A DNA stretch of 64,000 nt from the human T2T-CHM13v2.0 reference genome, Homo sapiens. The translations under genes were made by a program, and so were the position numbers. Location: assembly GCF_009914755.1 (NCBI RefSeq), contig NC_060931.1. One strand, written 5' to 3'. Positions 3,694-64,000 of this stretch are shown here, one piece after another (the stretch's first letter is position 1; each line of letters opens with the position of its first letter). The notes beneath the pieces were generated by a model. That model had not been told where the DNA came from. It was given only the letters and a program-made list of their open reading frames with translations, and did not search any database.

Positions 3694-5459
3694 CCTGGAG
3701 AACTACCTTGGCACCTTTGTCAAGTATCAACTGACCGTATATGTGTGGGTCTACACCTAGATTCTCTGTTCTGTTCCACTGATCTAAATGTCTGTCCTTA
3801 CATCAATACCACACATTCTTGATTATGTTTAAATAACAAAGCACTTCATATACGTGTGCTTATACAGGCAACAGTATACTTCCATTAACCCCCGCATCCT
3901 TTGCATTATTTTTATTATGATTTCAACTTCTATATATGTTATAAATGGCACAATAAGTTACTATTTTTGCCCTAAACAGTTAAAAAATAGACTTAACAGA
4001 CTTAATAGATGAAATAATTTTTAACTATTCACCTACATATTTACCATTTTTGGTACTCTTTATTGCCTTATATCGGTCCACATTTCCTTGAGCTTCTAAC
4101 ATCTTTTCTACTGCAAGTTTGCTGACAATAAATTCTTTCAGCTTTTGTTTATCTGAAACACTTTTTATTCTGCTTTCATTTTTGAAAAATATTTTCCCTG
4201 AATATGGAATTCTAGATTGACTGGTTTTTTTCTTGCAGTAACATTTTTTTCTGGCTTGCATATTTTCTGATGATGAGTCTTATCTTTGATTGTGTCTGCA
4301 TAATACGTCTTTTTCCCCAGGCTGTTTTTAAGATTCTTTTTTATTTCTGGTTTTCAGCAATTTGATTATGATGTACCCTGGTATGGGTTTCCTTTGTGTT
4401 TAGGCTGCTGGAGTCTATGGAGCTCCTTGAATTTGTGAGTTTATAGTCTATCAAATTTGGAAATTTTTCAACCAATTTTTTATGTTGCCTCTTTTCTCTC
4501 CTCTCTGAGACTTCAGTTACAGTAATTTAGACTGCTGGACTCTGGGCTCAGTCTGGATTTCCTTCCTCTGTGCTGTAGCCTAGAAACAGCCCCCAGGCAG
4601 TAATCTGGGGCAATTACAGGGCTCACTTCATTTGTCTTCCTTTTCTTGGGGATCACGGACCTACACTGCCTGTTCAATGTCTGAAAAGAGTTTTATATAT
4701 TTTGCATAGTTTTCTAGTTGTTTATGGCAGGACGGCAACTCCCGTAGCAGCGAAGCCACATGAGAAGATGAGGAAGTTCTTCCCCTGAATGTTTAATTTT
4801 ATATACAATTACCAGCAAACTGGCCCTATAGTAAAAGCACACACTATCCACTGTCCATTATTTAAAGATTGGTAGGAATTATGACATATTAATACAGTTT
4901 CAAATTGTGTTTGCTTCTTTAAATGACTACATCACAATTTTGATCTGTGGTGAACTCACCTTTGCCTGAAACACCTACCTTTTTTATGTTTAAGTGAGTA
5001 ACTGCCAAGCCACATTTCCCCTGCCTTGAATTTATTTAGATGTATGAGGTTTAGGGGGAGGGCGTGTTGTACCTAAATGCCAGATTTTCCATTTATTTCT
5101 GTTAAATTTCATCTGCTTAGATGTAGCCTATTGCATCTGATTCTGCAATAATAGTTTTTTTGACATTGTGGTAGCATTAGAATTCTTTTTTCAAATTAAA
5201 TCTCAGAAGGCGGACAAATATAATAGCCAGGTTGCTGTCTATTAAAGAGGATGTGGGAGTGTCAGAGCTCTGTGTGCGTGGGGAGGGTGAGATCTGCCAT
5301 ACCTCTTAGGCACTTCCAAAGACTCTTGTGGTTCTTTGGAGCACAGTTTGAGAGGCACTGGTTTAAGAGTTGTGAATTCGCTCTCACATGGCATTTCCAG
5401 ATTTGCTCAAAACAACTTCTGTATTTTTACCCAAATATTGAAAATCATTCTCCAACTAG

Positions 5460-5720
<261 letters not shown>

Positions 5721-6710
5721 TAATTTTAAGATTGTTTTCAATTATCTGAAAACAATTCTATATTACATCAAAAACATGCTTTCTCCTACTGGCTCTATTC
5801 CCACTCTCTTCTTTCAAGTGATGAATTGTGATCAAATATTACATCATAGAGAGTTTTCACTTGGGGAATTTGGCTGCAGACTATTAGATATGCAATCTAA
5901 TGAGCATTATGGTTCTGTCCAAGTTGCATATCTAACACTCCCAAGTAGCCAGATATACCTCCCTCACCTAATGTCTTTTTTATACACCCCATTCTAAGCT
6001 TGATAACATAGAAAATAGCCATATTTATCCCCAGCACTCACTTCATTCCTGCCCATAGACATGTCTGCACATCTCTAGGCACTCTTTTAGATACATCTCC
6101 TCTGATGCACATAAACAAATCAAGCAAATGATTTTATGGGAAGGAGAAAGATGAACAAGTAGGTCACCACAGAAATCCTGCAGGTAAGTGACAAGAGTGA
6201 AGTACTGTTAGGGCAGAAGGTGAATGGTCAATATATCAGTGCTAATTATTTTCATATTTTCTAACATTTCTAGATAAACTTTAGCTTCACAAGTCTGTAA
6301 AGTAATATTCTCCAGATTCTAGTTGGTCAGTGTTGTAGAGGTAATAATTTCTAATACTTAATATGGTTTATTTGAAGTAGACAAATTACATTGATTTCAA
6401 GGTAGCCTATTTAAAACTGGTCATGTTTCCAATTGTAAGTTTCTGTTTTTACTTATTTCTAATATAGAAACAGGAATACCTTTGCTTTGCCTTTGCTTTG
6501 CTTTCAAGAATGATCTATGTTTTGTCCAGGAGGTATTTTAGAAAAGAAAAAGAGAAATCCTTCAAACTTTTTGCAAGTTTATTAAATTTCAAATAAATCT
6601 GTAGAATATTTTGAATTGTTTGAAGATGGACACTTTAAAAACACAAAAATTACCCTGTTGGTCCTCTCATTTTGAGTGAAAGTTTGCCTTTGCCCTTTAT
6701 GTACTTTGTG

Positions 6711-7277
6711 GTTTTGTTTTTTTTTAATTTTTTTAAGATGAGGCCTTGCTTTATCGCCCAGGTTGGAATACAGTGGCACGATCACAGCCCACTGCAGCCT
6801 CAAACTCCTAGGCTCAAGCAATCCTCCTGCCTTAGCCTCTGAAGTAACTAGGACTATAGGTGTGCACCACCATACCTGGCAAATTATATTTTTTGTAGAG
6901 ATGGGGTCTTGCCATGTTACCCACGCTGGCCTCAAACTCCTTGGCTCAATGAATCCTCCCACCTCAGCCTCCCACACAACTTTCACAGTCTTCTCCTTTT
7001 CTTTCCCTTCCTCATAAGAAAACCAACAGTGTGGACCTGGAAAATAGCTCTCTGGTCAAAAAAAACCTCTCTGCCCTTCACTCAACAAAAACATAGCCTT
7101 TCCTTCTCTGGGCCAGGCACTAGCCCACAATCTCCATTAGACTCTTCATCCTTCTATAGGAATGATCAAGATTGTGAAAGACACCATGACAATTGCCAAA
7201 ATTGCTGGGATTCTAGGCACGAGCCAGTTAATCGCCAAAATTGCTGGGATTCTAGGTGTGAGCCATCATGCCCAGCC
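6711..7277 (-). mobile_element. AluJ-type SINE split by a templated insertion
   Basis: Alu sequence to 6974, resuming at about 7204; TSD tactttgt at 6702-6709 and 7278-7285. Confidence 0.9.
6970..7203 (+). pseudogene. Duplicated fragment of PIK3CG intron 7/exon 8 (copy of 8868-9115) embedded in an Alu
   Basis: Direct alignment by eye; 7160-7203 matches exon 8 nt 9072-9115 at 41/44. Confidence 0.95.
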
Positions 7278-7299
7278 TACTTTGTTTATTTGTTGGGGC

Positions 7300-7440
7300 A
7301 CATAGTTTGGCAGCTAAGGGCAAGTTATTTAAGCTCTTTAAGGCTTTGTTCCTTCACCTGTAGAATGGGAATAATAATCCTATCCACATTATAGGGCAAT
7401 GCAAGGATCACACATAAAGCAGCAATCAGTATATATTCGC
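7300..7440 (+). mobile_element. MIR fragment
   Basis: gggcaagttatttaa...ttccttcacctgtagaatgggaataataat MIR core. Confidence 0.65.
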
Positions 7441-7577
7441 TATCATTATCATCATTGTAGTTACTGCTGCTTTGGTTATTGCCTTTGATAAATATGTGTA
7501 AGGATGTTAGAGTTTTGTGGTAAAATAGACACAAGTAAAGCAGAACATTTGAACAGAGAGGTGATGAACCACAGCTA

Positions 7578-8078
<501 letters not shown>

Positions 8079-8130
8079 CTATTTTTAAGGGAGAAGAAAA
8101 ATATATTAAGTTAATATATATATAATATAA

Positions 8131-8250
<120 letters not shown>

Positions 8251-8932
8251 TAGTTACCTCAGGAGATGAATAGACCTCTCAGCTCGTTTGAAAAGATTAT
8301 AATTCCTTCAGTGTAGACATTTAATAACTGAAAAATCATAATCTTAATCTGTATAAAAAGGAAGAAAACATTTCTATGCTGGTGAATGTGACTCTCAATT
8401 TAATGTGGATATATTGAAAATACATGAATGCATGATTCAAATCCCTGTGACTATACATGGAAATGATTTTAGTAAGAACTTGTTCCCTCCTCTTTCCTTC
8501 TCCATCTCTAAACTTTAACTCATTTCATTACACATTAAACTTTTCTCTCACAAAAAACATTTAAAAATAGATGGAAAGATCTGTCACTTATTTTAGTATT
8601 CCAGAATTCACATTATCAAAGCTATTACACACTCTACTATCAGGTATTTTTATAGACATTCAGCATTAGTTTCAGTCAAACATATGTTTATTCAAGTTTC
8701 TGATCTGAGAACTCTACAAAACCATTTACATTTAACCCTGTAATTTAAAAAAGGAAAAGGCACAGATTGCCATCTGAGGAAGGATATGCTCAGCATATAA
8801 ATGCTTTTATTTATTACTATTCAAAACCAGCCCTTTCCTCTTGTCATTCTGGGATATTGAAAACATATCCCACACAACTTCCATATCCTCCTTCTTTCCT
8901 TTCTATTCCTCATAAGAAAACCAATAGCATAG

Positions 8933-9226
<294 letters not shown>

Positions 9227-10193
9227 TAATGGCTCCTTACAAGTTGTCATTTATATAGCAGTAGTGGCTTCAAGTTTTCAGAGAATCTGCCAGTGTCTTG
9301 CCTCCTGACATATTAGTGAAGTTTTTTACTTGTGAAATAATGGAGGTTTTAAGTACCCTCCCGTGGTGACAGCATATCTGTGTGAAACAGAGGCACTCAG
9401 TTCAGGACTCCATGAGCATTTGCTTCTCTTTTGATTATCAGGCATACTTTGCTTAAAATTTGGTTCTGTAAAATAATCTGTTAGCACTTTTTATGGCTAT
9501 CTATTTTTGTTGTTCAGCCAAGATATTTAGTTACCATGTATAAACTCTTACGTACCTGGGAAATACAACATACACAACAAAGTAATTTATAATTTACTGC
9601 TGAACTCTAATCTAAATGGTAAATCATGGATGCTGAAAATGTCACTTCCACCATTCCTTGGAAGTGCATATGCTCAATCCTTCACAAGCTGTGTTTTAGC
9701 TGTTTGGCTGTCGTTTAAAGTTCTGCTGCACAGGATTAGCACTTCTCATTTGCATGGTTAGCAGCCTTTTGGGGAGGAAATATAATGAGTAGCACTTATT
9801 AATCTGTTATACATGGGGATCTGTGAACCCAAGCATACTCTTAGTGGTCACAAGCAAAACATGTTCACAAATGAAGGAGAAATTACCATGGGTTCTATAT
9901 AGTTGTTGGCAAGTGATGCATGGAGAGGAAGTGAACCCTTTGATTAAATTACTGTTGCCCTTTGACTCTTGTTTCTTCCTCATGCCATTGTGATTCACTG
10001 AATCTTCACCTAAAATATAAGCAGAGCAATGAGAAAGTTGGCAATTCATAGATATAATGCTAATGAAATCAGGCACAACTAACTTGCTCTCTGAAAATGG
10101 TTTCCAGAATATTCTCTTTTTAGAAGTCATTTGTAGATTCATGATGCTTTTTGTAGTTAGAAGACAACTAATATTCAAATGCATTTTAATTAG

Positions 10194-10316
<123 letters not shown>

Positions 10317-10329
10317 TAGTGCAGAATAA

Positions 10330-10530
10330 ACTTTTATTGTGGTAAAATATATATAACATAACATTTACTATTTTAACTCTAATTAACTGTAAGTGTTCAG
10401 TTCAGTGGCATTACATATGTTCACCTTGTTGTACAACCATCATCACCATTCATCCCCAGAATTTTTCCATCTTCCCCAGCTGAAACTCTGTACCCATTAA
10501 ACACTAACTCCCCATGCCTCCCTCCTTTCA
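10330..10530 (-). mobile_element. L1MB-type 3'-end fragment
   Basis: Typical antisense L1M 3' UTR text (gttcagtggcatta...aaactctgtacccattaaacactaactcccca). Confidence 0.7.
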
Positions 10531-10620
10531 GAACGGAGTAGTCTTTAAATGGAGTTTAAGACTGGAGCACATATTTAGAAGTCATTGTGTAGGGACACTG
10601 GTGCTTCAGTTACTCTAGAG

Positions 10621-11204
10621 CAGTGGCCCCCAACCTCTTTGGCACCAAGGACCGGCTTCTTGGAAGACACCTTTTCCACGGACAGGGGTGGGGGAGCAAG
10701 GATGGTTTCAGGATCATTCAAGAGCATTACGTTTATTGCACACTTTTTTTTCAACTCACTTGCCACTATAAAGCCTGCCACCAGATGCAGCTCAATTTTC
10801 ACTTGCCACTCACTGAGAGGGTTTTGATATGTAAGGAATTGATTTATTATGGTCTCTGTGCAGTGAAACCTCTCTGCTAATGTTAATCTGTATTTACAGC
10901 CACTGCCCAGTGCTAGCATCACCACCTCAGCTCCACCTCAGATCATCAGGCATTAGATTCTCATAAGGGGTGCACAGTCTAGATCTTTCTCGTGCACAGT
11001 TCACAATAGGGTTTGTGTTCCTATGAGAATCTAATGCTGCAACTGATCTGACAGGAGGTGGAGCTCAGGCAGTAATTCAGGCAATGGGGAGCAGCTGTAA
11101 ATACAGATGAAGTTGCTCACTTGCCCATCGCTCACCTCCTGCTGTGTGGCCCAGTTCCTAACAGGCCATGGACCTGTCCATGGCCCAGGGGTTGGGGACC
11201 TCTG
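10621..11204 (+). mobile_element. MER1A-type (hAT-Charlie) element
   Basis: Terminal inverted repeats cagtggcccccaacc / ggttggggacctctg; perfect 8-bp TSD ctctagag at 10613 and 11205. Confidence 0.9.
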
Positions 11205-23428: not shown

Positions 23429-26400
23429 TTTATTTTTGGCTGGGGGTACATGTGAAAGTTTGTTACATAGGTAAACACATGTCACAGGGGTTTGTTGTAC
23501 ACATCATTTCGTCACCCAGGCATTAAGCCCAGTACCCAATAGTTATCTTTTTTGCTCCTCTCCCTCCTCTCATTCTCTCCCCTCAAGTAGATCCCAGTGT
23601 CTGTTGTTTCCTTCCTTGTGTTCATAAGTTCTTATCATTTAGCTCCCACTTATAAGAGAGAACATGCAGTATTTGGATTTCTGTCTCTGCATTAGTTTGC
23701 TAAAGATAATAGCCCCCAGCTCCATCCATGTTCCCGCAAAAGACATGATCTCATTCTTTTTTATGGCTGCATAGTATTCCATGGTGTATATGTACCACAT
23801 TTTCTTTAATCAGCCTATCATTGATGGGCGTTTAGGTTGATTCTGTGTCTTTGCTATTGTGAATAGTGCTGCAGTGAATATTTCTGTACATGCGTTTTTA
23901 TGGTAGAATGATTTCTATTCCTCTGGGTATATACCCAGTAATGGGATTTCTGGATCAAAATGGTAGTCATGCTTTTAGCTCTTTGAAGAATTGCCACATT
24001 GCTTTCCACAATGGTTGAACTAATTTACACTACCACCAACAATGTATAAGTGTTCCTTTTTCTCCACAACCTCGCCAGCATCTGTTACTTTTTGACTTTT
24101 TAGTAATAGCCATTCTGAGTGGTGGGAGATGGTATCTCATTGTGCTTTTGATTTGCATTTCTCTAATGATCAATGATGTTAAGCTTTTTTCATATGCTTA
24201 TTGGCTGCATGTATGTCTTCTTTTGAGAAGTATCTGTTTGAGTCCTTTGCCCACTTCTTAATGGGATTGTTTTTCTCTTGTAAATTTGTTTAAGTTCTTT
24301 ATAGATGCTGGATATTAGACCTTTGTCAGATGCATAGTTTGTAAATATTTTCTCCCATTCTGTAGGTTGTCTGTTCACTCTCTTGATAATTTATTTTGCT
24401 GTGCAGAAGCTCTTAAGTTTAATTAGATCCCACTTGTCAATTTTTCCTTTTGTTGCAGTTGCTTTTGGTGTCTTTGTCATGAAATCTTTGCCCATTCCTA
24501 CAACCAGCATGGTATTGCCTAGGTTGTCTTCCAGGATTTTTATAGTTTTGGGTTTTACATGTAAGTCTTTAATCCAACTTGAGTTGATGTTTGTATATGG
24601 TATAAAGAAGGGGTCCAGCTTCAATCTTCTGCATATGGCTAGCCAGTTATCCCAGCACCATTTGTTAAATAGGGAGTCTTTTCCTTGTTGCTTGTTTTTG
24701 ACAGCTTTGTCAAAGATTAGACAGTCATAGATGTGTGGCCTTATTTCTGGGCTCTCTGTTTTGCTCCTTTGGTCTCTGTGCCTGTTTTTGTACCATTACC
24801 ATGCTGTTTTTGTAGCCTTGTAATATAGTTTAAAGTCAGGTAATATGATGCCTCCAGATTTGTTCTTTTTGCTTAGGATTGCCTTGGCTATTTGGGCTCT
24901 TTTTTGGTTCTATATGAATTTTAAAATAGTTTTTTCTAGTTCTGTGAAGAATGTCATTTGTAATTTGATAGAAATAGCATTGAATTCCTTTGGGCAGTAT
25001 AGCCATTTTAATGATATTGACTCTTCCTATCCATGAGCATGGTATGTTTTTCCATTTGTTGGTGTCTTCTCTGATTTCTTAGAGCAGTGTTTTATAATTC
25101 TCATTGTAGAGATCTTTCACCTCCCTGGTTGGCTATATCCCTAGGTATTTTATTCTTTTTGTGGCAATTGTGAACGGGATTGCCTTTCTGATTTGGCTCT
25201 TGGTTTGGCTGTTGTTGGTGTATAGGAATGCGTGATTTTTTACACTGATTTTGGATCCTACAACTTTGCTGAAGTTGTTTATCAGCTGGAGGAGCTTTTA
25301 GGCAGAGACTATGGGGTTTTCTAGATATAAAATCATGTCATCTGCAAACAAAGATAGTTTGACTTCCTTTCTTCCTATTTAGATGTTCTTTATTTCTTCC
25401 TCTTGCCTGATTGCTCTGGCCAGGACTTCCAATACTATGTTGAATAGAAGTGGTGAGAGAGGGGTTCCTTGTCTTGTGCCAGTTTTCAAGGGGAATGCTT
25501 CCAGCTTTTGCCCATTCAGTATAATGTTGGCTGTGGGTTTGTCATAAATGGCTCTCATTATTTTGAGATATGTTCCTTCAATACCTAGTTTATTGAGAGT
25601 TTTTAACATGAAAGGGTGTTGAATTTTATCGAAAGGCTTTTCTGTGTCTATGGAGATAATCATGTGGTTTTTGTCTTTAGTTCTTTGTATGTGAGAATCA
25701 CATTTATTGATTTGCGTATGTTGAACCAACCTTACATCCTGGGGATGAAACCTACTTGATCATGGTGGATTAGCTTTTTGATGTGCTGCTGGATTTGGTT
25801 TGCAAGTATTTGAAGATTTTTGTATTGATGTTCACCAAGGATATTGGCCTGAAGTTTTCTTTTTTGTGTGTTTCTGCCAGGTTTTGGTATCAAGATGATG
25901 CTGCTCTCATAGAACGAGTTGGGGAGGAGTCCCTCCTCAATTTTTTAGAATAGCTTATATAGGAAGGGTACCAGCTCTTCTTTGTACATCTGGTAGAATT
26001 CAGCTGTGAATTGATCAGGTCTTGGGCTTTTTTTTGGTTGGTAGGCTATTTATTACTGATTCAATTTTGGAGCTCATTATTGGTCTGTTCAGGGAATCAG
26101 TTTCTTCCTGGCTCAGTCTTGGGAGGGTGTATGTGTCCAGGAATGTATCCATCTCTTCTAGGTTTTCTAGTTTGTGTGCATATTTGTAGTAGTTTCTGAT
26201 GGTTGTTTTTATTTCTGTGGGGTCAGTAATAACATTCCCTTCTTCATTTTTAATTGTGTTTATTTGGATTATATATATATTTAGGCTACTTTATATATAT
26301 ATTAAGGATAGTTAAGTCTTCTTGTTGAATTGAACCCATTACCATTATGTAATGCCATTCTTTGTCTTTTTTGATCTTTGTTAGTTTGAAATCTGTTTTG

Positions 26401-28374
26401 TCTTAAATTAGGACAAACCCCTGCTTTTTTTCTGTTTTCTATTTGCTTGGTATATTTTCCTCCATCCCTTTATTTTGAGCCTATGAGTGTCATTACGCAT
26501 GAGATGGGTCTCTTAAAGACAGCATTACCATTGGGTCTTGCTTTTTTATTCAACTTGCCACTTTGTCTTTTAAGTGGGGCATTTTGCCCATTTACATTCA
26601 AGGTCAGTATTGATATGTATGGATTTGATCCTGTCATTGTGCTATTAGCCGGTTACTATGTTAGCTTGTTTGTGTGGTTGCTTTACAGTGACACTGGTCT
26701 GTGTGTTTAAGTGTGGTTTTGTATTAGCTGATAGCAGTCTTTCCTTTCTATATTTAGTGTTCCTTTCAAGGTCTCTTGTAAGGCAGGTCTGGTGGGAATG
26801 AATTCCCTCAACATTTGCTTATCTGAAAAGGATCTTAAGTCTCCTTCACTTAGGAAGCTTAGTTTGTCTGGATATGAAATTCTTGGTTGAAGATTTTTTT
26901 CTTTAAGAATGTTGAATATAGGCCCCAAATCTCTTCTGGCTTGTAGGGTTTCAGTGGAGAGGTCCGCTGTTAGCCTGATGGGGTTCCCTTGTAGGTTACC
27001 TGCCCTTTCTCTCTAGCTACCTTTAACATTCTTTCCTTCATTTCGACCTTGGAAAATCTGATGATTATGTATCTTGGGGATGATCTTCTTGTGTAGAATC
27101 TTGCAGTTCTCTGTATTTCCTGAATTTGACTGTCAGCTTCTTTAGCAAGCTTGGGAAAGTTTTCATGGATGATGTCCTGAAATGTGTTTCCAAGTTGTTT
27201 GCTTTATCCTCCTCCCTTTCAGGGATGCCAGTGATTCGTAGATTTGGCCTTTTTACATAATCCCATACTTCTCAGTGGTTTTTTTTTTCATTTCTTTTTT
27301 TTCTTTTTTCTTTATTTTTGTCTGACTGTCTTATTTCAGAGAACCAGTCTTCAAGTTCTGAGATTCTTTTCTCAGCTTGGCTTATTCTGCTATTAATACT
27401 TGTGATTAAATTGTGAAATTCTTATATTGTGTTATTCAGCTCTGTCAGACCCATTAGGTTCATTTTTATACCAGCTATTTCATTCTTCAGTTCCTGCATC
27501 ACTTTATTGTGATTCTTATTTTCCTTGGATTGGGTTTTGCCATCCTCCTGAATCTCAATGATCTTTGTTCCTGTCCATATTCTGAATTCTGTGTCTGTCA
27601 TTCCAGCCAGTTCAGCCTGGTTAAGAACTCTTGTTGGAGAACTGGTGTGCTTGTTTGGAGGACATATGACAATTTGGCCATTTGAGTCACGAGAGTTCTT
27701 GTGTTGGTCCTTTCTCATCTCTGCATGTGGGTGCTCCTTTAACCAGTTGTAGATTGAGAACAGTCAACAGAATTCTTTTCTGGATGTTTTCACCAGGCCA
27801 AGGCTTTGTGCAGGGTCTTTATTTGAAGCTGACTTCTTGTCCCTGGTTTCAGAGGGAGGTATGTTAGTGAGGTATTTTTGGTGTTGAAGCTTTGGGGTAT
27901 GATCCAGCAGGTGGCACTTAGGCTTATTGGTCGGTTGGTAGACTCTTGCTTGGTTGTGTGGCTCCCCCATGTTAACTCACAGTTGCAGCCATGTTCTCTC
28001 TCAATGCTCTGAAAGTGTGGGTTTCTCTCCCCCTTGAGTGCTGTCTGTAGATCATGACTTGGCACTCCTCGGATGCCCACTGCAGCTCTTGTGTAATCTC
28101 AGTGTTTATGTTCCTTTCCCAACTTGGAGGCAGCAGAGGAAGGGACTTTGGTATTGGTTGTGGCCAAGGGTCATTTGCTTGTCACCTGGGGACTCCACCC
28201 CAGAGAGATGCAGGTCAGCAGTGGCTCAGTGCAAGCAGCCCAGGATGGAGAGTCTGTGCTGTGGGCCCAAGCCAGGGGTTTCCTGTCGTGTCAAGCAATG
28301 CGGGGGGTGTGTGGGATGCACGGGAGACACACTGGCCTCCTCTCCTTGGGTCAGCTGCAGCTTGCTGGAGGTGT
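23429..28374 (-). mobile_element. Old primate L1 (~4.9 kb; 3' UTR, disrupted ORF2, ORF1, partial 5' UTR), antisense in intron 10 and nested in an older L1M 3' end
   Basis: ORF2 peptides at 24190-25729, ORF1 peptides at 26707-27718; 15-bp TSD aaaatcaccctttct at 23414 and 28375. Confidence 0.93.
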
Positions 28375-44838: not shown

Positions 44839-51039
<6,201 letters not shown>

Positions 51040-55265: not shown

Positions 55266-55470
55266 AGAAACATATAGATCATAGCATTAAGGACCCCTCC
55301 TTCCATTGCAATATTTCAGTCATCTTCCTGTTTCCTCCTCACTTCCATCTCCTTAACACCCAGGGTTTTTATCAGGAAGGAATCAGCCTGCCTCTGTGAT
55401 CTTAGCCTCTAATATAAAGATGCTTATCTTGGAAGCTCCATGTTATTTCTTCCTTGGAAACTCTTGATAT

Positions 55471-55913
55471 GTTTTTTTTAATTATTATACTTTAAGTTTT
55501 AGGGTACATGTGCACAACGTGCAGGTTAGTTACATATGTATACATGTGCCATGTTGGTGTGCTGCACCCATTAACTTGTCATTTAACATTAGGTATATCT
55601 CCTAATGCCATCCCTCCCCCCTCCCCCCACCCCACAACAGGCCCCGGGGTGTGATGTTCCCCTTCCTGTGTCCATGTGTTCTCATTGTTCAATTGCCACC
55701 TATGAGTGAGAACATGCGGTGTTTGGTTTTTTGTCCTTGCAATAGTTTGCTGAGAAAGATGGTTTCCAGCTTCATCCATGTCCCTACAAAGGACATGAAC
55801 TCATCCTTTTTTATGGCTGCATAGTACTCCATGGTGTATATGTGCCACATTTTCTTAATCCAGGGCACTATTCACAATAGCAAAAACTTGGAACCAAGCC
55901 AAATGTCCAACAA
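55471..55913 (-). mobile_element. Short young L1PA (PA2-4-like) insertion with a 5' inversion
   Basis: 3' UTR on the minus strand to 55863, inverted piece 55864-55913; 15-bp TSD ggaaactcttgatat at 55456 and 55914. Confidence 0.93.
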
Positions 55914-63291: not shown

Positions 63292-64000
63292 CTACAGTAA
63301 CCAAAACAGCATGGTACTGGTACCAAAACAGAGATATAGACCAATGGAACAGAACAGAGCCCTCAGAAATAATACCACACATCTACAACCATCTGATCTT
63401 TGACAAACCTGACAAAAACAAGCAATGGGGAAAGGATTCCCTATTTAATAAATGATGCTGGGATAACTGGCTAGCCATATGTAGAAAACTGAAACTAGAC
63501 CCCTTCCTTACCCCTTATACAAAAATTAATTCAAGATGGATTAAAGACTTACATGTTAGACCTAAAACCATAAAAACCCTAGAAGAAAACCTAGCTCTTA
63601 CCATTCAGGACATAGGCATGGGTAAGGACTTCATGTCTAAAACACCAAAAGCAATGGCAACAAAAGCCAAAATTGACAAATGGAATTTAATTAAGCTAAA
63701 GAGCTTCTGCACAGCAAAAGAAACTACCAGCAGAGTGAACAGGCAACCTATAGATTGGGAGAAAATTTTTGCAATCTTTCCATCTGACAAAGGGCTAATA
63801 TCCAGAATCTACAAAGAACTTAAACAAATTTACAAGAAAAAAATCAAACAACCCCATCAAAAACTGGGCGAAGGATATGAACAGACGCTTCTCAAAAGAA
63901 GACATTTATGCAGCCAACAGACACATGAAGAAATGCTCATCATCACTAGCCATCAGAGAAATGCAAATCAAAACCACAATGAGATACCATCTCACACCAG
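63292..64000 (+). mobile_element. 5'-truncated L1PA ORF2 segment running off the window edge
   Basis: Near-collinear with 49602-50309 of the full-length L1. Confidence 0.93.

What the first reader, a model, noticed from the sequence alone, without database searches (positions are those of the whole stretch)
6970..7203. Copy of the intron 7/exon 8 junction inserted inside an Alu 1.9 kb upstream
Seen: 6970-7203 duplicates 8868-9115 (about 200 nt of intron, the acceptor, and the first 44 nt of exon 8). It interrupts one antisense AluJ bounded by a single TSD (tactttgt), at the Alu phrase cctcagcctccca|aagtgctgggatt. There is microhomology at both ends: tccca on the left and ccaaa(a/g)t on the right. 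Because intron is included, it is not a processed-mRNA copy. Its orientation requires the minus strand as template if it was made during Alu cDNA synthesis, so it was not copied from sense pre-mRNA in that scenario. Inference: a DNA-templated switch (polymerase-theta end joining/MMBIR-like repair, or capture during Alu integration).
Basis: partly seen in the sequence, partly recalled or inferred. Interest (0 to 1): 0.8.

Follow-up and report, generated by a model that had tools for sequence, protein, structure and literature searches.

The report
Old repair patch inside an Alu
A 230-base copy of a PIK3CG intron-exon junction sits inside an old Alu repeat 1.9 kb upstream and is most likely the fossil of an ancient chromosome-break repair, a known kind of event with no sign of function.

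Summary
Window 6970-7203 copies 8868-9115: 204 nt of PIK3CG intron 7, the acceptor and 44 nt of exon 8. The match is 204 of 230 aligned bases plus two indels. These are the only two places in the whole assembly.

The copy splits one antisense AluJ, which is bounded by a single 8-bp target-site duplication. Only 3 Alu bases are lost. There is 5-nt microhomology on the left. The right junction has a perfect 1-nt overlap and a 6-of-8 imperfect match. The insert has no target duplication, poly(A) tail or poly(A) signal of its own.

Local Alu clocks put the insert at about 6% divergence per lineage, like AluS copies. The host Alu is at 12%. This favours a break in an already resident Alu over capture during integration, but does not prove it.

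Best reading: microhomology-primed copying of a patch from 1.9 kb downstream. The template was probably DNA, but unspliced pre-mRNA is not excluded.

This is a new instance of a known kind (templated insertion, class-2 TSI, MMBIR-like). No function is evident. Interest is low to moderate.

The parts
6702..6709 (.). Left target-site duplication of the host Alu (TACTTTGT)
   Evidence: the 8-mer occurs only twice in the 64-kb window, at 6702-6709 and 7278-7285.
6710..6974 (-). Host AluJ, 3' portion as read on the Alu's own strand: tail complement, right monomer, linker and most of the left monomer, ending in ...CCTCCCA
   Evidence: Metazoa_SRP match 6733-6880 (-), 57.8 bits, E 2.8e-13, below the gathering score of 70; aligned with 104 local Alus; 7 of 7 J-core states; 26 of 216 non-CpG differences from the local J consensus.
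6970..6974 (+). Left junction microhomology TCCCA, shared by the Alu and by the source (8868-8872)
   Evidence: Chance of 5 nt or more at a random junction is 0.0046.
6975..7202 (+). Inserted patch (228 nt unambiguously source-derived): copy of 8873-9114. Copied acceptor AG at 7158-7159. Exon-8-derived 44 nt at 7160-7203.
   Evidence: No CpG left in the copy. No poly(A) signal, poly(A) tail or flanking duplication.
7203..7226 (-). Right junction (T at 7203 is shared) and the first copy of the Alu segment that follows the break (GCTGGGATT...GAGCCA)
   Evidence: The local Alu consensus shows that only 3 Alu bases (AAG on the + strand) are missing between 6974 and 7203.
7227..7229 (.). 3-nt filler GTT between the two copies of the junction
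   Evidence: No template for it was found within 5000-11000.
7230..7265 (+). Second copy of the right junction: 13 nt exon-8-derived (7230-7242) plus 23 nt Alu. It duplicates 7191-7226 (32 of 36 identical).
   Evidence: family D5 (spacing 39). TRF did not report it.
7243..7277 (-). Host AluJ, 5' end (head of the left monomer)
7278..7285 (.). Right target-site duplication of the host Alu (TACTTTGT)
8868..9115 (+). Source: last 204 nt of PIK3CG intron 7 (8868-9071), the acceptor, and the first 44 nt of exon 8 (9072-9115)
   Evidence: Hub gene table for the exon bounds; the annotated coding pieces join into one open frame with a single terminal stop; three CpGs (9079, 9094, 9099) are intact here and decayed in the copy.
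7591..7927 (+). Neighbouring sense-strand AluS (7603-7915) with its 12-bp TSD AAGAAATGTATT (7591-7602, 7916-7927). It is head-to-head with the host Alu across a 325-bp spacer. Context only; its role is unproven.
   Evidence: (I1, I2: 72-79% complementary); 11 of 224 non-CpG differences from the local S consensus.

Best explanation
This is a repair scar. An AluJ had already integrated, antisense, into PIK3CG intron 6. Later, in the germ line, a double-strand break or collapsed fork opened that Alu between ...CCTCCCA and AAGTGCTGGG...

Proposed steps:
1. One 3' end annealed by the 5-nt microhomology TCCCA to the same chromosome 1.9 kb downstream.
2. It was extended for about 230 nt, through the end of intron 7 into exon 8.
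3. It then came off the template and re-annealed to the other side of the break through a weak match (6 of 8, last base perfect).
4. It was sealed with the loss of only 3 Alu bases.
5. The 36-nt duplicate of the new junction, with its 3-nt filler, is either a further slip in the same event or a second small end-joining event at the same spot.

The template was most likely DNA in cis. The process resembles synthesis-dependent, polymerase-theta or MMBIR-like template switching.

The patch has since drifted neutrally, at roughly the age of the local AluS copies. It has no evident function.

What is shown: the anatomy, the uniqueness in the genome, the junction features and the relative divergences. 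What is inferred: the break, the order of steps, the enzyme and the nature of the template.
For: 1. **Anatomy.** One Alu with one TSD is split by a unique-sequence copy, and only 3 Alu bases are missing. Two ends of a broken duplex explain the return to the same Alu position without further assumptions.
2. **Left microhomology.** 5 nt, chance 0.0046. The right junction has a 1-nt perfect and 6-of-8 imperfect match.
3. **No retrotransposition marks on the insert.** No flanking duplication (only a 4-mer is shared by the 30-nt flanks), no poly(A) tail, and no AATAAA or ATTAAA signal on either strand.
4. **Donor intact and in cis.** There are only two copies in the whole assembly, and this is the only local direct low-copy pair in the window.
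5. **Dating.**
   - Host Alu: 26 of 216 non-CpG differences (12.0%) from the local J consensus.
   - 17 J copies average 10.2%; 82 S copies average 6.2%.
   - Insert versus source intron: 23 of 187 (12.3%) pairwise, about 6% per lineage.
   - Equal age with symmetric neutral drift predicts 19-22.5% (binomial P 0.008 to 0.0003).
   - The distal 135 intron nt alone give 17 of 135 (P 0.028 to 0.0025).
6. **Direction.** All 3 exon differences are CG in the source and TG or CA in the copy.
7. **Second rearrangement at the same junction.** The 36-nt duplication plus filler fits iterative template switching or end joining.
8. **Break position.** It lies inside the Alu segment that published compilations find enriched for rearrangement junctions. 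[quoted passage not shown] My placing of the break within that core uses the core's position as I recall it.
9. **Precedent.** Templated insertions of 7 bp to 13 kb with microhomology are reported at human germline junctions (PMC5120786, passages). DSB patches of 73-414 bp with microhomology or microdeletion and no TSD or poly(A) are also described (PMC5110952, sections 4 and 9).
Against: - **No orthologue could be examined**, so the order 'Alu first, patch later' rests on a molecular clock with wide errors. The per-lineage estimates are 0.062 +/- 0.012 for the insert and 0.12 +/- 0.022 for the Alu.
- **The clock test depends on an assumption.** If the source intron had been frozen by constraint, the test no longer rejects equal age (P 0.56-0.84).
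- **The exon-only one-lineage clock is weak.** There are 0 of 38 non-CpG changes but 3 of 3 CpGs decayed. The likelihoods are 0.032 (S-age), 0.014 (J-age) and 0.0066 (host-Alu age).
- **Mismatches cluster at the left end.** It is 9 of 34 against 17 of 196, permutation P 0.048. If the rest had been homogenised by an old gene conversion, the event could be as old as the Alu. No long identical tract supports a recent conversion (longest run 23 nt, P 0.82).
- **Departure from typical polymerase-theta insertions.** The template is 1.9 kb away and the patch is about 230 nt. Both are far beyond the short, break-proximal templated insertions I recall as typical of polymerase theta. That is recalled, not read here.
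- **Template unresolved.** Nothing in the sequence tells a DNA template from unspliced pre-mRNA.
Confidence: 0.55

Rival explanations
1. Same break in a resident Alu, but the patch was reverse-transcribed from nascent, unspliced PIK3CG pre-mRNA. That would be a class-2 templated sequence insertion made in cis, by LINE-1 ORF2p acting without its endonuclease or by polymerase theta. The minus-strand 3' end on the right side of the break would prime on the ...GCCAAAAUU stretch of the transcript. It would copy back to ...UCCCACAC and then join the left end through TCCCA.
For: - The donor lies in a transcribed gene, and the copy is collinear with sense pre-mRNA across an unspliced intron-exon junction.
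- The size (228-234 nt) falls within the 73-414 bp (median 191) range of experimental DSB patches.
- Those patches show microhomology or microdeletion and no TSD or poly(A). They were reduced more than three-fold by reverse-transcriptase inhibitors (PMC5110952, sections 4, 5 and 9).
- Human polymerase theta can reverse-transcribe RNA and promote RNA-templated repair (PMC8195485; title and abstract seen in the listing).
Against: - Described TSI donors map to distant regions, not to 1.9 kb away in cis (PMC5110952, section 4).
- PIK3CG would have to be transcribed in the germ line or early embryo. I recall it as chiefly leukocyte-expressed; this was not checked here.
- There is no RNA-specific mark. 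No excess of source-A to copy-G changes is seen (2 such changes against 5 of the reverse).
- A DNA template in cis is the simpler reading for so close a donor.
Confidence: 0.2
2. Capture of a free DNA fragment. A roughly 240-bp piece of extra DNA from the intron 7/exon 8 region (for example an over-replicated or displaced flap) was ligated into a break in the Alu by end joining that used microhomology. No priming or synthesis took place at the break.
For: - The same junction features apply: microhomology, 3-nt loss, no TSD or poly(A).
- The donor is intact.
- Capture of filler DNA at breaks during primate evolution is documented for mitochondrial fragments (PMC2567098; title and abstract seen in the listing).
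Against: - It needs an extra free copy of a specific nearby segment.
- Microhomology at both ends and the junction duplication are explained at least as well by priming and template switching.
- No sequence feature singles out this model.
Confidence: 0.1
3. Co-integration. The patch was made while the Alu was being inserted, by ORF2p switching from Alu RNA to another template and back. During first-strand synthesis that template would be minus-strand DNA or antisense RNA. During second-strand synthesis it could be sense pre-mRNA.
For: - A single TSD encloses Alu plus patch.
- There is microhomology at the switch points.
- If the source intron were strongly constrained, or the copy was later partly converted, the clock does not reject equal age (frozen-source case).
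- The left-end 34 nt are 26% diverged, close to the 19-22.5% expected for Alu age.
Against: - Intron divergence is about half that expected for the host Alu's age (P 0.0003-0.028).
- The switch would have to leave the Alu RNA internally and return within 3 nt of the same position. The template jumps of ORF2p that I recall occur at RNA 5' ends (recalled, not read here).
- The first-strand version needs single-stranded genomic DNA 1.9 kb away.
Confidence: 0.07
4. Chance similarity, a dispersed repeat family, or an assembly artefact.
For: None found.
Against: - E 6e-73 in the window and 1.2e-65 genome-wide, with exactly two places.
- There are 26 substitutions with directional CpG decay and two indels. 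These are incompatible with a recent mis-assembly duplicate.
Confidence: 0.01

Closest known systems
Class 2 templated sequence insertions (TSI/TSIP; Onozawa and Aplan; PMC5110952)
   Same: - A patch of a few hundred bp copied from an intact donor into a break.
- Microhomology and microdeletion at the junctions.
- No TSD, poly(A) tail or poly(A) signal.
- The donor is transcribed and may be intronic.
   Different: - The donor here is 1.9 kb away in cis, not a distant locus.
- The event is ancient and probably fixed rather than a human polymorphism.
- RNA origin is not shown.
- There is an added 36-nt junction duplication.
FoSTeS/MMBIR templated insertions at germline rearrangement junctions (PMC2621351 seen in the listing only; PMC5120786 passages read)
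   Same: - Microhomology-primed copying of a nearby segment.
- Copy-number gain with the donor intact.
- A hint of iterative switching (the junction duplication).
- A possible error cluster next to one junction.
   Different: - This is a simple insertion, with no larger CNV or rearrangement attached.
- Replicative origin cannot be tested from sequence.
- The mismatch cluster is only marginally significant (P 0.048).
Polymerase-theta-mediated end joining with templated insertions (Schimmel et al. 2019, cited in PMC7615360; not read)
   Same: - Microhomology use.
- A templated insert.
- Small loss at the break.
- A small tandem duplication with filler at the same site.
   Different: - The insert is about 230 nt and its template is 1.9 kb away.
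- As I recall, the typical signature is a short insert templated from the immediate flanks.
Filler-DNA capture at breaks in primate evolution (numt insertions; PMC2567098, abstract only)
   Same: A fixed evolutionary insertion that patches a break with little loss of flanking sequence.
   Different: The filler here is nuclear, local and unique, not mitochondrial.
LINE-1-mediated retro-insertions (class 1 TSIP, processed pseudogenes, chimeric retrocopies)
   Same: A copy of transcribed gene sequence found inside or next to a retroelement.
   Different: - No TSD, poly(A) tail or poly(A) signal around the insert.
- The intron is retained.
- The insert is internal to the Alu rather than at its 5' end.

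Membership tests
AluJ SINE (host element) | Dimeric 7SL-derived element of about 300 bp with an A-rich linker and A-tail | tested here: met
   The right monomer matches Metazoa_SRP (57.8 bits, E 2.8e-13, below the gathering score of 70). With the insert and duplicate set aside, it aligns along its full length with 104 local Alus.
AluJ SINE (host element) | Flanking target-site duplication | tested here: met
   TACTTTGT at 6702-6709 and 7278-7285, the only two occurrences in 64 kb.
AluJ SINE (host element) | Subfamily-diagnostic positions of the old (J) group | tested here: met
   7 of 7 J-core columns, as defined from correlated states in the local sample (17 J-like, 82 S-like, 5 intermediates dropped). 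The columns were derived locally, not from the published consensus.
Class 2 templated sequence insertion | Insert copied from an intact donor; size about 73-414 bp | tested here: met
   228-234 nt. The donor is intact and is the only other copy in the genome. The size range is from PMC5110952, section 4.
Class 2 templated sequence insertion | No TSD, no poly(A) tract, no cryptic poly(A) signal; microhomology or microdeletion at the junctions | tested here: met
   (none of the three). (5-nt microhomology, 3-nt loss).
Class 2 templated sequence insertion | Donor in a distant genomic region | tested here: not met
   The donor is 1.9 kb downstream on the same strand.
Class 2 templated sequence insertion | RNA intermediate | not testable with these tools
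   The donor is transcribed and the strand logic allows it, but no sequence mark discriminates.
Class 1 TSIP / LINE-1 ORF2p retro-insertion (for the insert itself) | TSD of at least 5 bp, poly(A) tail, poly(A) signal, TTTT/A-type site | tested here: not met
   The flanks share only a 4-mer. There is no A-tail (the insert ends ...GCCAAAAT) and no signal on either strand.
FoSTeS/MMBIR | Microhomology at the template-switch junctions, with copy-number gain of the copied segment | tested here: met
   5 nt on the left and 1 nt (6 of 8) on the right. The donor is retained.
FoSTeS/MMBIR | Iterative template switches / complexity | tested here: inconclusive
   The 36-nt junction duplication with 3-nt filler fits, but it could be a later independent event. 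The two copies differ at 4 of 36 positions.
FoSTeS/MMBIR | Replication-coupled origin and error-prone synthesis near junctions | tested here: inconclusive
   The mismatch cluster at the left end is 9 of 34 against 17 of 196, permutation P 0.048. Without an outgroup, the lineage that carries the changes is unknown.
Polymerase-theta-mediated end joining | Short templated insert copied from sequence immediately flanking the break | tested here: not met
   The insert is about 230 nt and its template is 1.9 kb away. The 'typical' values are recalled, not read.
Polymerase-theta-mediated end joining | Dependence on POLQ | not testable with these tools
   Needs experiment.

The most novel reading that the evidence does not exclude
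The patch is a fixed germline fossil of RNA-templated break repair in cis. A break in the intronic Alu was mended by reverse-transcribing the host gene's own nascent, still-unspliced transcript. The retained intron-exon junction is the tell-tale. The error-rich first 34 nt and the stuttered junction would record a low-fidelity, low-processivity polymerase such as polymerase theta.
Probability: 0.2. Interest if true: 0.55.

Novelty: new member of a known kind. Interest (0 to 1): 0.3.

Why it matters
The locus is a clean, datable natural specimen of patch repair. Both junctions, the intact donor, the host repeat and a secondary junction slip are all preserved within 2.5 kb of one gene.

With primate orthologues it could give three things:
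- the order of events;
- the polarity of the 26 substitutions, and therefore a rare evolutionary estimate of how error-prone the patch synthesis was;
- a test of whether Alu cores are natural break sites.

In practical terms it places a decoy copy of a real 3' splice site in PIK3CG intron 6. A plausible donor lies 96 nt downstream, and a stop codon follows almost at once. A variant that strengthens it could therefore create a poison exon. No RefSeq transcript uses it (hub table).

It does not open a new mechanism.

Tried and rejected
- **TRF.** Tandem Repeats Finder did not report the 39-nt-period junction duplicate. It was found by the repeat finder (D5).
- **First Alu clustering.** My first automatic J/S clustering mixed decayed S copies with J copies. 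I discarded it and redid it from correlated non-CpG columns. Five intermediate copies were dropped.
- **Pfam.** The 43-aa exon 8 translation alone gave no family. Coding status therefore rests on the hub's RefSeq table and on the single open frame of the joined coding pieces.
- **Template for the filler.** No template for the 3-nt filler GTT and its context was found within 5000-11000.
- **Recent gene conversion.** The longest identical run is 23 nt, P 0.82, so there is no support. An old conversion is not excluded.
- **Inverted Alu pair as the cause of the break.** This is not supported beyond co-location:
  - The neighbour AluS (4.9% non-CpG divergence) cannot be ordered in time relative to the patch (about 6%).
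  - The spacer is 325 bp and the arms are now 72-79% complementary.
  - Abstracts seen in the listing (PMC10164571, PMC3215922) say instability falls with distance and divergence.
- **A-to-G excess in the copy as an RNA-editing mark.** None was found.
- **Literature.** The search for PIK3CG with 'cryptic exon', 'pseudoexon' or 'intronic duplication' required at least 2 of the 4 terms. None of the 8 listed papers contains PIK3CG. I found nothing in print on this feature in that one search.
- **Not possible here.** Primate orthologues and other human assemblies could not be consulted with the tools at hand. Supplementary tables of the cited papers were not seen.
Full report
**1.

Reading both regions and aligning them shows that window 6970-7203 is a direct copy of 8868-9115, 1898-1912 bp downstream (families D1-D3). 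The self-BLAST of the window gives 83.9% over 248 columns, E 6e-73.

A global alignment of 6974-7203 with 8872-9115 gives 204 identities and 26 mismatches (21 transitions, 5 transversions). There are two indels: 12 A in an A-run (21 A in the source, 8 in the copy) and 2 bp.

By the hub's exon table the source is the last 204 nt of PIK3CG intron 7, the acceptor, and the first 44 nt of exon 8. The annotated coding pieces in the window join into one open frame with a single terminal stop.

A search of the whole 3.1-Gb assembly found exactly these two places (2 of 2 candidates scored). In the window's self-comparison this is the only local, direct, low-copy pair. The other five low-copy pairs are long, 75-90% identical, inverted matches that look like LINE fragments and were not followed.

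So this is not chance and not a repeat family. With 11% divergence it is not an assembly artefact either.

**2. The host.**

The copy lies inside an antisense Alu. TACTTTGT occurs only twice in the 64-kb window, at 6702-6709 and 7278-7285, immediately outside the two Alu ends.

Rfam's SRP model matches the right monomer on the minus strand (6733-6880, 57.8 bits, E 2.8e-13, below the family's gathering score).

To classify and date the Alu without typing any consensus from memory, I built a local sample:
- I collected 104 near-full Alus from the window plus 200 kb of flanking sequence and aligned them.
- I separated an old group from a young group by seven correlated non-CpG columns: 17 J-like, 82 S-like, 5 intermediates dropped.
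- A first automatic clustering was discarded as mixed.

The host Alu carries 7 of 7 old-group states.

**3. The junctions.**

*Left.* The Alu reads ...CCTCAGCCTCCCA and the source reads ...ATATCCCACACAAC. TCCCA (6970-6974 = 8868-8872) is common to both. Five or more shared bases at a random junction have probability 0.0046.

*Right.* The copy follows the source through ...GCCAAAATT (7203 = 9115) and then continues as Alu, GCTGGGATT. In strict register only the T is shared. Allowing mismatches, the last 8 source bases match the Alu bases at that point in 6 of 8 positions.

Measured against the local Alu consensus, only three Alu bases (AAG on the + strand) are missing between the two junctions.

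The insert has none of the following:
- a flanking duplication (the 30-nt flanks share only a 4-mer);
- an A-tail;
- an AATAAA or ATTAAA signal on either strand.

**4.

The right junction is itself duplicated. Positions 7191-7226 and 7230-7265 are 32 of 36 identical (D5) and are separated by GTT (7227-7229). Each copy begins with 13 nt of exon-8-derived sequence followed by 23 nt of Alu.

The duplication therefore came with or after the patch. The three bases after the first copy (GTT) do not match those after the second (TCA). It is thus a 36-nt duplication with a 3-nt filler rather than a clean 39-nt slip. No nearby template for the filler was found. TRF did not report this repeat.

**5. Dating.**

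On 224 usable non-CpG columns:

| Element | Non-CpG divergence |
|---|---|
| Host Alu vs local J consensus | 26 of 216 (12.0%; K2P 0.134) |
| 17 J copies, mean | 10.2% (range 6.2-15.6) |
| 82 S copies, mean | 6.2% (sd 1.8) |

The insert and source differ at 23 of 187 intron positions (12.3%, K2P 0.137). Neither has a CpG in the intron part. If both drifted equally, that is about 6% per lineage, the level of the local AluS copies.

Equal age with the host Alu would predict 19-22.5% pairwise. The observed value has binomial P 0.008 to 0.0003. For the 135 intron positions at least 50 nt from the acceptor, it is 17 of 135, P 0.028 to 0.0025.

Caveats, stated in full:
- If the source intron had been frozen, the test does not reject equal age (P 0.56-0.84).
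- The exon part is a one-lineage clock because the source is coding. It shows 0 of 38 non-CpG changes, which favours a younger age. But 3 of 3 CpGs are decayed, which favours an older age. Calibrated on local Alus (71.5% of CpGs decayed in S copies, 94.5% in J copies), the combined likelihoods are 0.032 (S-age), 0.014 (J-age) and 0.0066 (host-Alu age). That is only a 2-5-fold preference.
- Mismatches cluster in the first 34 nt, a pyrimidine-rich stretch: 9 of 34 against 17 of 196, post-hoc Fisher P 0.006, permutation P 0.048 for the best split. That could be local hypermutability, error-prone patch synthesis, or an old gene conversion that refreshed the rest.
- There is no long identical tract that would indicate a recent conversion (longest run 23 nt, P 0.82).

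Translating 6% into years uses Alu subfamily ages that I recall (AluS roughly 30-40 My, AluJ roughly 55-65 My). No call supports these numbers.

**6. Direction.**

The copy is the derived member for two reasons. It is the one flanked by the two halves of a single Alu. And all three exon differences are CG in the source against TG or CA in the copy.

**7. Mechanism.**

The anatomy is what a broken duplex repaired with a copied patch looks like:
- both Alu ends are kept;
- three bases are lost;
- there is microhomology where the patch starts;
- there is a weak match where it ends;
- the donor is intact;
- there are no retrotransposition marks on the patch.

I therefore favour a break or collapsed fork in an already resident Alu. 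One 3' end primed on the same chromosome 1.9 kb downstream, was extended for about 230 nt, was released, and was captured by the other end. The duplicated junction with filler fits a further slip in the same event, or a second small end-joining event at a fragile spot. The sequence cannot tell which.

[quoted passage not shown] That the break falls inside that core rests on my recollection of the core's position.

**8.

The argument that orientation excludes sense pre-mRNA is valid only for first-strand Alu cDNA synthesis. In a break-repair scenario the minus-strand 3' end on the right side of the break could be extended on sense, unspliced pre-mRNA. So 'DNA-templated' is not established.

Supporting literature:
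- Experimental break patches of 73-414 bp (median 191), with microhomology or microdeletion and without TSD or poly(A), are described as class-2 templated sequence insertions.
- They were enriched for transcribed donors and were reduced more than three-fold by reverse-transcriptase inhibitors (PMC5110952, sections 4, 5, 8 and 9 read).
- Polymerase theta can reverse-transcribe RNA (PMC8195485, abstract in the listing).

Against RNA here: those donors are distant, whereas this one is 1.9 kb away in cis. No RNA-specific mark is present.

Capture during Alu integration is disfavoured by the dating. It is also disfavoured by the need to leave the Alu template internally and return within 3 nt.

**9. 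Context noted but not shown to matter.**

A sense-strand AluS (7603-7915, 12-bp TSD at 7591-7602 and 7916-7927) lies head-to-head with the host Alu across 325 bp. The arms are now 72-79% complementary. Its non-CpG divergence (11 of 224, 4.9%) cannot be distinguished from the patch's roughly 6% per lineage.

Inverted Alu pairs are reported to be under-represented when close, and less destabilising with distance and divergence (PMC3215922, PMC10164571; abstracts in the listing). This is a lead only.

**10. Function.**

None is evident. The copied acceptor is intact (...CCTTCTATAG|GAATG at 7159|7160). A plausible donor (TAG|GTGTGA) lies at 7255|7256, which would make a 96-nt exon. Spliced between exons 6 and 7, it would bring a stop codon in its second codon. 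RefSeq lists no exon there (hub table). In one literature search, none of the 8 listed papers linked PIK3CG with cryptic or pseudo-exons.

**11. Comparison and verdict.**

The event works like a templated insertion at a break. The closest described categories are class-2 TSI, MMBIR/FoSTeS templated insertions (7 bp to 13 kb at human germline junctions; PMC5120786 passages), and filler-DNA capture in primate evolution (PMC2567098, abstract).

How it fits each category:
- It meets the size and junction criteria of class-2 TSI but fails 'distant donor'.
- It meets the microhomology and copy-gain criteria of MMBIR, but iterative switching and error-proneness are inconclusive.
- It does not fit the short, flank-templated polymerase-theta signature as I recall it.

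It is a new instance of a known kind: real, old and tidy, but not surprising to a specialist. The decisive test is the state of this locus in other primates, which could not be run here.

Noticed in passing
window 7191-7265: A 36-nt tandem duplication of the patch/Alu junction (32 of 36 identical) with a 3-nt filler GTT. Each copy starts with 13 nt derived from exon 8.
   Followed up: yes
window 7591-7927: A sense-strand AluS with a 12-bp TSD (AAGAAATGTATT) lies head-to-head with the interrupted AluJ across a 325-bp spacer. Its non-CpG divergence (4.9%) is similar to the per-lineage divergence of the patch. A possible but unproven source of fragility.
   Followed up: partly
window 7160-7255: The copied 3' splice site is intact and a plausible donor lies 96 nt downstream in the Alu. 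If spliced between exons 6 and 7 it would introduce a stop in its second codon (a potential poison exon). Not annotated in RefSeq.
   Followed up: partly
window 8956-8976 versus 7058-7065: The A-run in the source intron has 21 A and the copy has 8. Either the source run expanded or the copy contracted after the event.
   Followed up: no
window 6974-7007: Mismatches between copy and source are concentrated in the first 34 nt next to the left junction, a pyrimidine-rich stretch: 9 of 34 against 17 of 196, permutation P 0.048.
   Followed up: partly
window 23597-27338 versus 46254-50830; also 24120-24813 versus 63300-63999, and 50614-51002 versus 55470-55863: Long inverted low-copy matches of 76-90% identity, probably LINE fragments. 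The family was not identified.
   Followed up: no
window 6755-6814 (+), 6831-6882 (-), 7808-7867 (-): Sub-threshold Rfam matches to mir-3135 and mir-1268 inside the two Alus (33-43 bits against gathering scores of 80-83). These are likely just Alu-derived similarity.
   Followed up: no
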